A stretch of 64,000 bases of DNA. It comes from the human T2T-CHM13v2.0 reference genome, Homo sapiens. The notes beneath the pieces are model-generated. The model was not told where the DNA came from, made no database searches, and worked only from the letters and a program-made list of their open reading frames with translations. The DNA lies in NCBI RefSeq assembly GCF_009914755.1, contig NC_060941.1. The stretch is one strand, 5' to 3'. How positions within the stretch are numbered: the first letter of the stretch is position 1; the number at the start of each line of letters is the position of its first letter. Below are positions 11,735 through 15,000 of the stretch, one piece after another. Made by a program: the position numbers and the translations under genes.

Positions 11735-12043
11735 AAGAGAGTGAGAGAATAGGAACTGGAATGTTTGGAGAACTCTATGTGGAAAATGCAATCCTGAATC
11801 ATGTATTAAAAATAAGGAGAGGCCAGGTGCCTCTCCTGGCCTCTCTAGGGTCTTGCTATGTTGGCCAGGTTGATCTCAAACACCTGGCCTCAAGCAATCC
11901 CCTCACCAAGGCCTCCCAAAGTCCTGGGATTACAGGCGTGAGCCACTGCACCTGGCCTCTCCTTATTTTTAATACATGATTCAGGATTGCATTTTCCACA
12001 CAGATTTCTCCAAACATTCTAGTTCCTATTCTCTCACTCTCTT
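11735..12043. repeat. 96-bp inverted repeat (11735-11830 and 11948-12043) around an inverted Alu monomer
   Basis: aagagagtgagagaatagg...aataaggagaggccaggtgc is the reverse complement of gcacctggcctctcc...ctctcactctctt, with 3 mismatches. Confidence 0.96.
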
Positions 12044-15000
12044 AAGAAATGGGACATCTCTTAAGGTAATGGTAAAAATTCCGGCCGAGGCAGGCAGATC
12101 ACTTGAGGTGAAAAGTTCGAGACCAACCTGGCCAACATGGCAAAACCCATTCTCTACCAAAAATACAAGAATTAGCTGGGCATGATAATGGGTGTCTGTA
12201 ATCCCAGCTACCCAGGAGGCTGAGGCAGGAGAATCACTGGAACCCAGGAGGCAGAGGTTGCAGTGAGCAGAGATCACACCACTGCGCTCCAGCCTGGGCG
12301 ACAGAGCAAGACTCAGTCTCCAAAAAAAAAAAAAAAAAAAAAAAAGGAAAAAGGAAAAGAAAAGCAAAAAAGAAAAAGGTGTTTGTGTGTTTCTGATCAC
12401 AGAGGCCCTGAAGATGGGTCTGCTGGCCTTTTGCTATTCTCAGAAATCTGCTTGGTGTTTGGTAGGAGGGTTGAGAAGGGGCCAAGAGCTGACCTTCCTC
12501 GCCCTGCAGCTGCACACGGGGGTGGCTGTTCTGTGTTCAGTGAGGGGTTAGACTCCAGACCTGTGAGGCTTCACATGTTTTCCTCCCCTTCTCTGGCCAG
12601 GCGCTGGTTGGCCCACGTGCCCTTAGCTTTCAGAGCATCCAGCTCTGCCAACCTTGCAGGAAGATCTGGGGGTAGGGGGCTCAGGGGAGAATCTTTATTG
12701 GGGCCATTCATTCTGCAACCACATAGGACTGGTGGAGCAGGAGCCAGTGCCCAGTTGGCCCTGATGAAAACCTTAATAGAGATACGTAGCCCAGCTCTGG
12801 TTGGGCACAGTGGCTCTCATGCCTGTAATCCCAGCAGTTTGGGAGGCTGAGGCGGGTGGATCGATTGAGCCCAGGAATACAAGACCGCCCTGGGCAACAT
12901 GACGAGATGCCCCTCTTTTATTTTATTTCATTTATTATTTATTATTATTATTATTTTTTGAGACGGAGTTTCACTCTTGTTGCCCAGGCTGGAGTGCAAC
13001 GGCGCGATCTCGGCTCACTGCAACCTCCACCTCCTGGATTCAAGCGATTTTCCTGCCACAACCTCCTGAGTAGCTGGGATTAGAGGCATGTGGCACCATA
13101 ATCAGCTAATTTTTGTAATTTTAGTAGAAATGGGGTTTCACCATGTTGGCCAGGCTGGTCTGGAACTCCTGACCTTAGGTGATCCACCCGCCTCGGCCTC
13201 CCAAAGTGCTGGGATTACAAGCGTAAGCCACCATGCCCAGCTGACACCCCTCTTTATAAAAAATGTATAAAATTAGCCGGGTGTGATGGTGCATGCCTGT
13301 AGTCCCAGCTACCGCGGAGGCTGAGGTGGAAGAATTTCTTGAGCCTGGGAGGTTGAGGTTGCAATGAATCGTGATTGTGCCACTGCACTCCAGCCTGGGG
13401 GGACAGAGCAAGACCCTGTCTCAAAACAAACAAATAAATAAATAAAGCAATTATTATAATACGATGGTCAAAATGTTCTTATTCAGTCAGCCTCTCACCA
13501 GAGCTGAGTGGAGGGGTCTTCAACTCTAGACGGCAAGTTAAGGAAGAGTTTTGAAGAGGTAATGGCAGAGCTGAATTTTTTCTGTTTTTGTTTTTTTGTT
13601 TGTTTTTGAGACAGGATCTTGCTGTGTTCCCCAGGCTGGAGTACAGTGTTGCAATCATAGCTCACTGCAGCCTGGAACTCCTGGGCTCGTGCGATCCTCC
13701 CATCTCAGCCGCCCAAGTAGCTGGGATTACAGTACAGGTGCACCACCACGCCTAGCTAATTTTTTAATTTTTTAGTAGAGACAAGGTCTTGCTGTTTGCC
13801 CAGGCTGGTCTCAAACTCTTAGGCTCAAGCAGTCCTTTCTCATCGGCCTCCCACAATGTTGAGATGACAGATGTGAGCCACCATGCCCACCCAGGGTGAT
13901 TTTTTTCTTTTTCTTTTTCTTTTTTTTTTTTTTTTTTTGAGATAGAGTTTCAGTCTTGTCATCCAGGCTGGAGTGCAGTGGTTCAGTGGCACGATCTCAG
14001 CTCACTGCAACCTCTGCCTCCTGGGTTCAAGCGATTCTCAGGATTACAGGCATGAGCCACCATGCCTGGAGTCCATATTTTGGAATATTTTCCATCTGTG
14101 GTTGGCTGAATCCATGGATGGGGAGCCTGCAGTTATAAGGGTCAACTGTACTGGCCTCATCAGTCCAGAAGTGCTCCTACTTCTGTTTTCTGGAGATTAC
14201 GTATAATTGGTGTTGATATTTCTTTAACTATGAGCAGACGTCTCCAGTGAAACTATCTGGGTCTAGAGATACCTTTTTCAAGAGTGGGAGGAAAGAGTTA
14301 ACAGAGCGGGTCTGTTTCACTCATTTCTCACTTATCTCTGTAGCCAAGGTGATGGCTGTTGGTCAAACTGAAAACCAACTCCTGGGATAGTCACATAGCT
14401 ACTGGGTCAGATGTTATCCTCCACGCCCAAAACAGCGAGCCCAGATGAACCAGGCTGTGAGCAGGTTTAAAGTGAACATAAAGATTTATGATGCTTGGCC
14501 AGGCACACTGTCTCATGCGTGTAATCCCAGAATTTTGGGAGGCCGAGGTGGGCAGAATTGCTTGAGGTCAGGAGTTCAAGACCAGCCTGGCCAGCATGGC
14601 AAAAACCTGTCTCTACTGAAAATACAAAAAATTAGCTGGACATGGTGGCGAGTGCCTGTATTCTCAGCTACTTGAGAGGCTTAGGCAGGAAGATCACATG
14701 AACCCGGGAGACAGCGGTCTCAGTGAGTCAGGATCACACCGCTGCACTCCAGCCTGGGTGACAGAATGAGACTCTGTCTCAAAAAACAAAGAAAAAAAGG
14801 TAAGGTCAGCTATGATCATGCCACTGCGCTCCAGCCTGGGGGACATAGTGAAACCCCATTTCTAAAAAAATAAATGACAAAAGATTTATGATGTCCAACC
14901 TGGTGGTTTAGGCTGTGTTTGTTCACATGGCATGACTGTCACCCAGGCTGGAGTGCAATGGTGTCATCTCAGCTCACTGAAACCTCCGCTTCCTGGTTTC

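What the first reader, a model, noticed from the sequence alone, without database searches (positions are those of the whole stretch)
11735..12060. Nested fold-back scars at the palindrome's inner junction suggest a readable serial template-switch record
Seen, in order: 96 bp ending in the first 10 nt of an Alu (ggccaggtgc). Then two overlapping micro-inversions: 11829-11837 is the reverse complement of 11815-11823, and 11835-11845 of 11817-11827. Then the Alu monomer body in inverted orientation, the same 96 bp inverted (11948-12043), and a jump into the big arm through 4-bp microhomology tctt (12040-12043, matching aaga at 5414-5417). Inference: one replicative event (FoSTeS/MMBIR or Pol-theta-like templated insertion) with about four strand switches created the whole palindrome. 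The small stem shows 3/96 mismatches versus well under 1% in the large arms. If both arose together, the large arms have since been homogenised, but the numbers are small.
Basis: partly seen in the sequence, partly recalled or inferred. Interest (0 to 1): 0.8.

Follow-up and report, generated by a model that had tools for sequence, protein, structure and literature searches.

The report
Template-switch scars at a palindrome centre
The 96-base stem is the innermost surviving piece of a 22.8-kb inverted duplication beside the chromosome 17 centromere, and its junctions show step by step how a copying enzyme slipped and turned round; this is a clear example of a known kind of rearrangement, not a new one.

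Summary
Arms 11735-11830 and 11948-12043 are 96 nt with 3 mismatches. Both micro-inversions exist, and the 4-bp overlap joins the small right arm to the large arm.

At chr7:69.384 Mb the 86-nt unique part of the stem runs straight into a forward Alu, with no inversion and no inserted 16 nt. chr7:99.684 Mb spans 5417/5418. So the 6.6-kb "spacer" is mostly arm sequence that the right arm lacks, and the true centre is 117 nt.

Two successive snap-back copies from the 3' end at Alu base 10 reproduce 15 of the 16 inserted bases. This polarity, and the attachment of the 117-nt centre to the right copy, fit a left-to-right replicative U-turn.

New points:
- The near-identical block (0.13% divergence) runs from the 4-bp junction to an 8-bp-overlap junction at 34787-34794.
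- The 95.7%-identical outer "arms" are separate members of a pericentromeric duplicon family of 40 or more copies.
- A second fold-back scar lies at the block's outer end.

The stem's 3.1% divergence against 0.13% (P = 2.8e-4) favours later arm homogenisation. One event versus several cannot be settled without ape genomes. Known kind; moderate interest.

The parts
1..5417 (+). Inner block of the left arm. It continues left of the window to window coordinate -17334 (chr17:21,744,666).
   Evidence: Aligns to 12040-34794 in reverse complement: 22,776 columns, 29 substitutions, 14 gaps. There is no mismatch in the last 287 bp before 5417.
5376..5729 (+). Stretch whose only paralog is chr7:99,684,173-99,684,849. 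It spans the 5417/5418 arm boundary.
   Evidence: 94% over 313 nt and 95% over 59 nt, with no other copy apart from the right arm's 42 nt. The left arm therefore runs into the 'spacer' as in the ancestor.
5418..11734 (+). 6,317 bp present only on the left side. This is arm sequence that the right copy lacks, not a true spacer.
   Evidence: 5760-11830 is colinear with chr7:69,384,464-69,390,747 (minus strand) at 86-90%. Both of its ends are continuous with their neighbours in paralogs.
11735..11820 (+). Unique 86 nt of the small left arm.
   Evidence: 83 of 86 identical to the right copy and 78 of 86 to chr7. Only two copies exist in 124 kb of chr17.
11821..11830 (+). First 10 bases of the Alu, forward. 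This is the 3' end that primed the snap-backs.
11831..11837 (+). Snap-back copy 1: 7 nt templated by 11821 down to 11815, primed by the GC at 11829-11830 pairing with 11822-11823.
   Evidence: The replay reproduces it exactly. The hairpin has a 9-bp stem and 5-nt loop, -10 kcal/mol, and 0 of 200 shuffles do as well.
11838..11845 (+). Snap-back copy 2: 8 nt templated by 11824 down to 11817, primed by the CCT at 11835-11837 pairing with 11825-11827.
   Evidence: The replay reproduces it exactly. The hairpin has an 11-bp stem and 7-nt loop, -13.1 kcal/mol, and 0 of 200 shuffles do as well.
11846..11846 (+). One base (T) that neither snap-back explains.
   Evidence: The next templated base would be C.
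11847..11947 (-). Alu bases 11-111, present once and continuous with the right copy. Together with 11831-11846 it forms the true 117-nt centre.
   Evidence: No donor Alu above 85% identity in 124 kb around it. Best elsewhere in the genome is 91%.
11948..12043 (-). Small right arm: Alu bases 1-10 plus the 86 unique nt.
12040..12043 (.). 4-bp overlap (TCTT; AAGA on the other strand, matching 5414-5417) where the copy skips the 6,317 bp.
12040..34794 (-). Inner block of the right arm.
34720..34794 (.). Remnant of the second fold-back as copied into the right arm: 16-nt stems 34720-34735 and 34779-34794 around 43 nt.
34787..34794 (.). 8-bp overlap (CTCAATGT; ACATTGAG on the other strand) where the inverted copy joins the right-hand family duplicon. 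2,846 bp present in the left copy and in chr18 are absent here.
   Evidence: The two alignments overlap by these 8 bases. Sequences. chr18 carries the 2.85 kb.
34787..51035 (-). Right-hand copy of a pericentromeric duplicon family. 34787-44310 pairs with the left copy at 95.7%. The family homology runs on to at least 51035.
   Evidence: Colinear with chr18:15,326,329-15,342,592 at 94.4%. 36 other copies span 44310/44311.

Best explanation
The 96-nt stem is the innermost segment of one inverted duplication. Its three junctions are template-switch or alternative end-joining scars.

Ancestral order (shown by paralogs): inner block, then the 6.3-kb stretch, then the 86-nt unique piece, then a forward Alu.

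Inferred sequence of events:
1. A plus-strand 3' end stopped at Alu base 10.
2. It folded back on itself twice, priming on 2 nt and then 3 nt, and added 7 + 8 templated bases plus one stray T.
3. It re-primed 101 nt further on, on the opposite template at Alu base 111, and copied backwards through the Alu head and the 86-nt piece (197 nt).
4. It skipped 6,317 bp through a 4-bp overlap and copied the whole 22.8-kb inner block backwards.
5. 16 nt into an older hairpin at the far end of that block, it left through an 8-bp overlap into a pre-existing, oppositely oriented copy of a pericentromeric duplicon. This restored the forward direction.

Afterwards, arm-to-arm gene conversion kept the 22.8-kb block at 99.87% identity. 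The 96-nt stem, cut off from it on one side by the 6.3 kb, drifted to 3 differences.

Shown: the anatomy, the ancestral order, the templating of the insert and the identity contrast. Inferred: the enzyme (Pol-theta-like or MMBIR-like), the order of the steps, that they formed one event, and the homogenisation.
For: 1. Ancestral state. chr7:69.384 Mb reads the unique 86 nt into a forward Alu at the same junction, without the 16-nt insert. chr7:99.684 Mb spans 5417/5418. The right-arm junction at 12040 is therefore the derived one.

2. The insert. A replay of two snap-backs from the end at 11830 gives 15 of 16 bases. Both intermediates fold better than all 200 shuffles. An 11-nt match has a chance frequency of 0.0007-0.0022.

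3. Direction. The insert is a snap-back product only of the plus-strand end at Alu base 10. On the other strand it would be a direct copy, not an inverted one. Independently, the single-copy Alu bases 11-111 are continuous with the copy that lacks the 6.3 kb. That excludes a simple fold-back of a resected end from the left fragment in one step. (Read from the sequence, plus inference.)

4. Junctions of the near-identical block. It runs from the 4-bp overlap at 12040-12043 to the 8-bp overlap at 34787-34794.

5. The outer blocks are not copies of each other.
- In a tree of 8 family rows and 1,757 columns, the left copy groups with the chr18 and chr2q21 copies (support 92/94), and the right copy lies outside that group.
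- The right copy ranks 14th of 40 by score to the left copy, and is not among the 44 rows listed for a 3.5-kb query.
- The right copy extends 6.7 kb further out.
- 34 other family copies continue past the point where the left copy turns into the hairpin.

6. Homogenisation.
- 3 of 96 against 29 of 22,776 gives Poisson P = 2.8e-4.
- Mismatches in the block are unevenly spread (KS p = 0.0025).
- Derived states are split 4 left, 4 right and 3 unresolved among 11 sites. In the stem they are split 1 left, 2 right. This is not one-sided as synthesis errors would be.

7. Literature, passages read.
- Pol theta alternates snap-back, in-trans and untemplated extension, with a median insert of 7 bp (PMC4912351).
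- Short tracts and extra switches at the first junction, chimeric Alus and error-prone synthesis occur in MMBIR-type rearrangements (PMC4352052).
Against: - The single-event claim rests on parsimony. The 4-bp and 8-bp junctions could equally be later deletions in the right arm.
- No second genome was available, so co-occurrence of the parts and the age of each junction are untested.
- The chr7 Alu agrees with the chr17 fragment only over bases 1-48 (47 of 48). After that only 41 bases match, with 19 mismatches and 5 gapped positions. No donor Alu was found nearby (best 84.8%) or in the genome (best 91%, with 40 of 3389 candidates scored). So either the chr7 copy changed through its tandem duplication, or there is one more switch inside the Alu that I cannot place.
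- An 11-mer overlapping the insert's (shifted by 2 nt) also lies inside a nearby Alu, as the complement of 11557-11567 (pair I7). The insert's template is therefore not unique.
- The family tree has only 8 rows and 1.75 kb, its key branch has 92/94 support rather than full support, and interlocus gene conversion could distort it.
- The cut used for the uneven-mismatch test was chosen after seeing the data. The KS test is free of that choice.
Confidence: 0.5

Rival explanations
1. Stepwise history. An old inverted duplication first made a nearly perfect palindrome with a 117-nt centre (inner block + 6.3 kb + stem on both sides). Later, separate microhomology deletions removed 6,317 bp and 2,846 bp from the right arm. 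Gene conversion then homogenised the block between them.
For: - Large palindromes are unstable around the centre of symmetry and lose spacer and inner-arm sequence by non-homologous deletions (PMC8327919, passages read).
- Both missing stretches are ancestral, which fits deletion.
- The near-identical block runs from one of the two heterologies to the other, as conversion tracts limited by heterology would be.
Against: - It needs at least three events where one would do.
- The 6.3-kb deletion would have to spare exactly 96 nt next to the centre.
- If the duplication had also made the outer blocks, they should be sister copies. They are not, and the right one is longer at its outer end.
Confidence: 0.33
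2. One young event, dated by the 0.13% divergence of the arms. The 3 differences in the 96-nt stem and the 3 differences in the last 25 bp at the other end of the block are errors of a low-fidelity polymerase near the template switches. No homogenisation is needed.
For: - Replicative repair is described as error-prone near junctions (PMC4352052, passage read).
- Differences cluster next to two of the three junctions.
- Two of the three stem differences are derived on the newly made right copy.
Against: - One stem difference is derived on the left, template copy.
- The 287 bp next to the 4-bp junction carry no difference.
- Differences inside the block are split evenly between the arms (4, 4 and 3 unresolved of 11) and are unevenly spaced. 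This looks like time and patchy conversion.
Confidence: 0.1
3. Two unrelated events. The 96-nt inverted repeat is old, and the large inverted duplication later landed beside it by chance.
For: The stem (3.1%) is far more diverged than the adjoining block (0.13%).
Against: - The small right arm ends at the very base where the large arm begins, with a 4-bp overlap.
- It has the orientation and order expected of arm sequence.
- A second breakpoint falling on the first by chance is very unlikely.
Confidence: 0.05
4. Assembly artefact in a repeat-rich pericentromeric region.
For: Nothing specific. Palindromes with 99.9% identical arms are hard to assemble.
Against: The stem, the insert and the 6.3 kb are single-copy in the genome. 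The junction sequences are internally consistent with ancestral paralogs. No read data could be examined here.
Confidence: 0.02

Closest known systems
Fold-back inverted duplications with a single-copy spacer (Hermetz et al. 2014, PMC3907307; abstract and passages read)
   Same: - Inverted and non-inverted copies are separated by a short single-copy stretch.
- Junctions carry 2-8 bp of inverted microhomology or small insertions (5 of 21 sequenced junctions had insertions).
- Hybrid Alu or L1 elements occur at some junctions. The second scar here runs through a hybrid Alu.
   Different: - Those are de novo, terminal, and paired with a terminal deletion and telomere healing. This one is interstitial and fixed in a reference genome.
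- Its single-copy centre is 117 nt, against 766-70,466 bp.
- The centre is attached to the copy that lacks 6.3 kb, which a one-step fold-back of a resected end does not give.
Polymerase-theta end joining / synthesis-dependent MMEJ templated insertions (Kent et al. 2016, PMC4912351, passages read; PMC2943611 and PMC5728401, search listing only)
   Same: - A short insert copied in inverted sense from sequence a few bases away.
- Several rounds of priming on 2-3 nt, dissociation and re-priming, with one stray base.
- Tract lengths of 7 and 8 nt match the reported median of 7 bp.
   Different: - The enzyme is inferred from the scar only.
- The joined partner is not the other side of a simple break but an inverted template 101 nt ahead, followed by 22.8 kb of synthesis. 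That is more than end joining does.
FoSTeS/MMBIR complex rearrangements such as DUP-TRP/INV-DUP (Beck et al. 2015, PMC4352052; abstract and passages read)
   Same: - Several junctions in cis with microhomology.
- An inverted gained segment.
- A short first tract before a long one.
- Alu involvement.
- Nearby inverted repeats in the architecture.
   Different: - In DUP-TRP/INV-DUP one junction lies within the homologous inverted repeats. Here the return junction uses 8 bp out of register, 2.85 kb from the homologous point.
- No triplication is seen.
- This is an evolutionary, not a clinical, allele.
Sex-chromosome palindromes kept above 99% by arm-to-arm gene conversion, with unstable centres (Jackson et al. 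2021, PMC8327919, passages read; others in the listing)
   Same: - Arms above 99.8% identical over more than 20 kb.
- Asymmetric loss of inner-arm sequence by non-homologous breakpoints.
- Evidence that identity is younger than the structure.
   Different: - It is autosomal, pericentromeric and without genes (only U6 snRNA-like copies are annotated).
- It is built from a mosaic of chr7 and chr11 duplicons.
- Conservation across species is untested.

Membership tests
Fold-back inverted duplication (Hermetz type) | Inverted and direct copies of the same sequence in cis | tested here: met
Fold-back inverted duplication (Hermetz type) | Single-copy spacer between the copies, continuous with the original (non-inverted) copy | tested here: not met
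   A 117-nt single-copy centre exists. However, its Alu part is continuous with the copy that lacks the ancestral 6.3 kb, not with the copy that keeps the ancestral context.
Fold-back inverted duplication (Hermetz type) | Inverted microhomology or an insertion at the spacer/inversion junction | tested here: met
   16-nt insertion at 11831-11846.
Fold-back inverted duplication (Hermetz type) | Adjacent terminal deletion with a healed end, a translocation or a ring | tested here: not met
   The structure is interstitial. The right copy joins a family duplicon and the chromosome continues.
Pol-theta / SD-MMEJ templated insertion | Insert templated from sequence within tens of bases of the junction | tested here: met
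   15 of 16 nt are templated from 11815-11827. Chance frequency 0.0007-0.0022.
Pol-theta / SD-MMEJ templated insertion | Each round primed by 1-4 nt of microhomology, compatible with a hairpin intermediate | tested here: met
   2-nt and 3-nt primers. The hairpins fold at -10 and -13.1 kcal/mol.
Pol-theta / SD-MMEJ templated insertion | Dependence on POLQ | not testable with these tools
   Historical germline event.
FoSTeS/MMBIR complex rearrangement | Two or more junctions in cis with microhomology and a change of strand | tested here: met
   Centre junction, 4-bp junction and 8-bp junction.
FoSTeS/MMBIR complex rearrangement | All junctions formed in one event | not testable with these tools
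   Needs other haplotypes or ape genomes. None are held here.
Palindrome maintained by arm-to-arm gene conversion | Arm identity far higher than expected from the age of the structure | tested here: inconclusive
   - Stem 3/96 against block 29/22,776, P = 2.8e-4.
- Uneven mismatches.
- Two-sided derived states.
- There is no independent date for the structure, because the outer blocks proved not to be sister copies.
Palindrome maintained by arm-to-arm gene conversion | Orthologous palindrome in other species with species-specific arm identity | not testable with these tools
   No ape genome is held.

The most novel reading that the evidence does not exclude
A fixed human pericentromeric palindrome keeps, base for base, the full itinerary of a single germline replicative accident. 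The itinerary is two snap-backs, a 101-nt U-turn onto the opposite template, a 6.3-kb skip, 22.8 kb of backward synthesis, and an exit prompted by an older hairpin. Its 96-nt stem, stranded outside the converting arms, serves as a built-in clock. The clock shows the arms have been homogenised roughly 25-fold below their true divergence. A second, older scar of the same design at the other end of the block would mean this style of fold-back-then-jump joining is a recurrent way in which pericentromeric duplicon mosaics are stitched together.
Probability: 0.35. Interest if true: 0.55.

Novelty: new member of a known kind. Interest (0 to 1): 0.4.

Why it matters
Most template-switch and Pol-theta scars are known from patients, tumours or reporter assays. 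Fixed evolutionary examples that can be read at single-base level, with the ancestral state recoverable from paralogs, are uncommon.

This locus offers four things:
- A worked example of how an autosomal palindrome in newly assembled pericentromeric DNA was built.
- An internal contrast (3.1% against 0.13%) that bears on gene conversion in autosomal palindromes.
- Two scars of the same design in one locus, hinting at how duplicon mosaics are joined.
- A caution that apparent outer 'arms' of a palindrome can be unrelated members of a duplicon family.

It does not reveal a new mechanism. It becomes directly testable once ape T2T and human pangenome assemblies are compared at this site.

Tried and rejected
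1. Dating the palindrome from the 95.7%-identical outer blocks. Rejected because they belong to a family of 40 or more copies and are not sister copies.

2. Reading the 2.85 kb at window -20180 to -17335 as an insertion in the left arm. Rejected because chr18 carries it, so the right arm lacks it.

3. The '97%' identity of the innermost 339 bp of the large arms reported. It is an effect of ungapped extension across a 6-bp indel. The last 287 bp are identical.

4. A donor for Alu bases 49-111.
- The Alu at chr7:69,382,096-69,382,200 is the best match in the genome (91%), but its flanks do not match.
- No Alu above 85% identity lies within 124 kb of chr17.
- The origin of the Alu body is unresolved.

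5. Continuation of the chr7:69.38-like sequence to the right of the palindrome. None was found in the window or in 60 kb to its left.

6. One-sided synthesis errors as the source of arm differences. Not supported (4 left, 4 right and 3 unresolved of 11).

7. A larger family tree.

One genome search failed on the machine's side.

9. Literature. The gene symbol next to the left arm returned 2 unrelated papers. A search on pericentromeric, palindrome, templated insertion and T2T returned none on this locus. Supplements of the cited papers were not opened. The junction tables of PMC3907307 (Fig. S1, Table S1) could hold closer analogues.
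Full report
**1. The observation**

- Arms 11735-11830 and 11948-12043 are 96 nt long, 117 nt apart and 97% complementary.
- There are three mismatches, at 11758/12020, 11773/12005 and 11777/12001. Homology stops sharply at both ends.
- Each arm is 86 nt of unique sequence plus the first 10 bases of an Alu. 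Alu bases 11-111 follow only the right copy, at 11847-11947 in reverse.
- The Alu name rests on my recall of the consensus and on the copy number: 3389 first-look candidates, 40 scored.
- Between the left arm and the Alu body lie 16 nt, 11831-11846. The two micro-inversions are exact: 9 nt and 11 nt (pairs I13 and I8).
- The large left arm ends at 5417 and the large right arm begins at 12040. Four bases are shared between the end of the large arm and the start of the small arm.
- As single-stranded DNA the stem folds at -129 kcal/mol, z = -23.9.

**2. The whole structure**

I added 60 kb to the left of the window and ran a self-comparison.
- Inner block: window -17334 to 5417 against 12040-34794. 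It has 22,776 columns, 29 substitutions (0.127%) and 14 gaps.
- Outer block: -29715 to -20181 against 34787-44310. It is 95.7% identical, with 337 substitutions in 9,567 columns (3.5%).
- The two blocks are separated in the left arm by 2,846 bp that the right arm lacks.
- The last 287 bp of the inner block before the 5417/12040 junction are identical. The 97% reported comes from ungapped extension across a 6-bp indel.

**3. The ancestral state**

The genome holds only one other place with the unique 86 nt: chr7:69.384 Mb.
- Window 5760-11830 is colinear with chr7:69,384,464-69,390,747 on the minus strand, at 86-90%.
- There the 86 nt (78 of 86 identical) run straight into a forward, full-length Alu at the same junction. 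There is no inversion and no counterpart of the 16 nt.
- The match is incomplete. Alu bases 1-48 agree at 47 of 48. In the rest only 41 bases match, with 19 mismatches and 5 gapped positions.
- chr7 has since duplicated the [Alu + unique] unit in tandem, which can make hybrid Alus. However, I found no donor for the chr17 Alu body: best 84.8% within 124 kb and best 91% in the genome, with unrelated flanks. An extra switch inside the Alu therefore stays possible.
- Window 5376-5729 has a single paralog, chr7:99,684,173-99,684,849 (94-95%). It spans 5417/5418.

Both ends of the 6,317-bp stretch 5418-11734 are therefore continuous with their neighbours in the ancestor. The stretch is arm sequence that the right copy lacks. 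The junction at 12040-12043 is the derived one, and the real centre is the 117 nt at 11831-11947.

**4. The centre junction**

- Start from a plus-strand 3' end at 11830. Pairing its last two bases with 11822-11823 and copying 11821 down to 11815 gives 11831-11837 exactly.
- Pairing the new last three bases with 11825-11827 and copying 11824 down to 11817 gives 11838-11845 exactly.
- In both rounds the next templated base differs from what is observed, so the copying stopped there. One base, 11846, is unexplained.
- The two hairpin intermediates fold at -10 and -13.1 kcal/mol, better than all 200 shuffles each.
- A random 16-mer reaches an 11-nt match to its flanks in 0.07-0.22% of 20,000 trials per null model.
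- A caveat: an 11-mer overlapping the insert's also lies inside a nearby Alu, as the complement of 11557-11567 (pair I7). The template is therefore not unique.
- The pattern matches what is described for polymerase theta: alternating snap-back, in-trans and untemplated extension, with a median insert of 7 bp (PMC4912351, passages read).

**5. Direction of the event (inference from the sequence)**

Two independent features point to the same order.
- The insert is an inverted copy only with respect to the plus-strand end at Alu base 10. Seen from the other end it would be a direct copy, which snap-back cannot make.
- The single-copy Alu bases 11-111 are continuous with the copy that lacks the 6.3 kb. 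A resected end folding back on itself leaves the loop attached to the original copy, so that model would make the copy without the 6.3 kb the template of the copy with it.

The order they indicate: the left copy is original. The strand left its template at Alu base 10, re-primed 101 nt ahead on the opposite template at base 111, and copied backwards. This is a replicative U-turn rather than a classical fold-back of a broken end.

Fusion of two broken sister chromatids on this side of the break would give a fragment without a centromere. I infer this because the satellite and the centromere lie to the right. A return to forward sequence is therefore needed.

**6. The return junction and the outer blocks**

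- At 34787-34794 the two alignments overlap by 8 bases. The same 8 bases flank the 2,846 bp in the left arm.
- chr18:15,333,066-15,345,398 is colinear with the left outer block, including the 2,846 bp (95.0%).
- chr18:15,326,329-15,342,592 is colinear with window 34786-51035 (94.4%).

So the right arm lacks ancestral sequence here too, and the right-hand duplicon runs 6.7 kb beyond the apparent arm end.

The outer block belongs to a pericentromeric family.
- All 40 scored candidates match an 801-nt piece at 95-97%.
- 36 other copies span 44310/44311.
- 34 other copies continue past the Alu at which the left copy changes into other sequence.
- The right block is not the left block's nearest relative. 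It ranks 14th of 40 and is missing from the 44 rows of a 3.5-kb search.
- In a tree of the 8 rows I held (7 different, 1,757 columns), the left block groups with the chr18 and chr2q21 copies at 92/94, with the right block outside.

On this evidence the outer blocks are separate family members in opposite orientation. The inverted synthesis ended by jumping into the right-hand one.

**7. A second scar**

At the outer end of the inner block, in the left arm, lies another fold-back. It is at L012 2323-3078, which is window -17677 to -16922.
- Arms of 211 nt are 98% complementary around 41 nt, extended by 119 nt at 90%.
- Each arm is about 58 nt of unique sequence plus an Alu.
- The inner half of the left Alu is a near copy of the right Alu. 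Its outer half is the family duplicon's own Alu, which chr18 and the other family copies also carry.
- chr11:131.396 Mb holds the unique piece and the sequence beyond the Alu in continuity, without the Alu.
- The right arm retains only 16 nt of the far stem. So this hairpin predates the large inverted copy, and the exit through the 8-bp overlap happened 16 nt after the loop. I infer that the nascent strand could fold on itself at that point.

**8. Ages**

- Three differences in 96 nt against 0.127% in the block gives Poisson P = 2.8e-4.
- With chr7 as outgroup, one stem difference is derived on the left and two on the right.
- In the block, of 11 differing sites between 1400 and 5417, 4 are derived on the left, 4 on the right and 3 are unresolved, using four chr7 paralog loci (from three chr7 places) at 87-89%.
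- The 29 substitutions are unevenly spread. The KS test gives p = 0.0025. Twenty of the 29 lie in the inner 8.4 kb; that cut was chosen after seeing the data.
- Three differences also lie in the last 25 bp at the outer end.

Two-sided, patchy differences fit time plus arm-to-arm conversion better than one-sided copying errors. Error-prone synthesis near switches is documented (PMC4352052, passage read) and cannot be excluded for the stem. Because the outer blocks are not sisters, there is no independent date for the structure.

**9. Weighing the models**

- Well supported, about 0.8: the stem and the large block are parts of one inverted duplication. The evidence is their abutment, order and orientation.
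- About 0.7: the insert was made by two snap-backs.
- About 0.65-0.7: the arms were homogenised afterwards.
- About even odds: the centre, the 6.3-kb skip and the 8-bp exit arose in a single replicative event, rather than as a duplication followed by deletions.
  - For one event: parsimony, and a 197-nt first tract. Short first tracts and extra switches at initial junctions are described for MMBIR.
  - For later deletions: palindromes are known to lose inner-arm sequence by non-homologous deletions (PMC8327919, passages read).

**10. Comparison and limits**

- The nearest described classes are: fold-back inverted duplications with a single-copy spacer (PMC3907307), Pol-theta/SD-MMEJ templated insertions, FoSTeS/MMBIR chains and converting palindromes.
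- This locus combines their features but adds no new principle.
- I found no paper on this locus. I did not open supplements.
- No ape or second human genome was available.

Noticed in passing
left of the window: L012 2323-3078 = window -17677 to -16922 (chr17:21,744,323-21,745,078); remnant at window 34720-34794: A second small fold-back of the same design as the finding. Arms of 211 nt at 98% plus 119 nt at 90% surround 41 nt, and each arm is unique sequence plus an Alu. The left Alu is a hybrid of the family duplicon's Alu and a copy of the right Alu. It marks the join between the family duplicon and the inner block.
   Followed up: partly
window 34787-51035 and window -29715 to -17383: Both belong to a pericentromeric duplicon family with at least 40 copies at 94-97%. 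Copies lie on chr1, 2, 7, 10, 13, 14, 15, 16, 17, 18, 21 and 22, including 2q21. Several places hold pairs in opposite orientation about 50 kb apart (for example chr2:94.82/94.87 Mb, whose copies are identical over 1.7 kb).
   Followed up: partly
window 1-5375, 5376-5729, 5760-11830: The inner part of the locus is a mosaic of small duplicons.
- Paralogs of 2900-3900 lie at chr7:36.07, 46.01, 56.49 and 102.59 Mb (87-88%).
- A 354-bp piece comes from chr7:99.68 Mb (94%).
- 6.1 kb comes from chr7:69.38 Mb (86-90%).
- A piece from chr11:131.40 Mb lies at the far end of the block.
The join at 5375/5376 falls inside a truncated Alu. The join near 5730-5760 falls in a CT-rich low-complexity run.
   Followed up: partly
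chr7:69,384,097-69,384,860 (loci L003, L014): The chr7 paralog carries a tandem duplication of the [Alu + 86-nt unique] unit (copies 90.7% and 86.3% identical to the chr17 piece). A younger-looking Alu follows the second copy. This is probably unequal Alu-Alu exchange after the chr7/chr17 split.
   Followed up: partly
window about 60000-64000: A dense satellite with 5-bp-based periodicity (copies spaced at 10 and 15 bp) begins near 60000 and runs to the end of the window. It looks like a classical pericentromeric pentamer satellite.
   Followed up: no
window -29715 (left outer end of the family duplicon): The annotated pseudogene LOC100996792 ends 6 bp inside this boundary. By my own reading of the sequence, the flanking sequence on the minus strand opens with an open frame that looks like part of a protein-kinase domain. 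I recall it as resembling MAP2K3; this was not checked with any tool.
   Followed up: no
window 17973-18079 and -635 to -529: The two annotated U6 snRNA-like genes are mirror copies inside the two arms of the inner block. They are one duplicated element, not independent genes.
   Followed up: no
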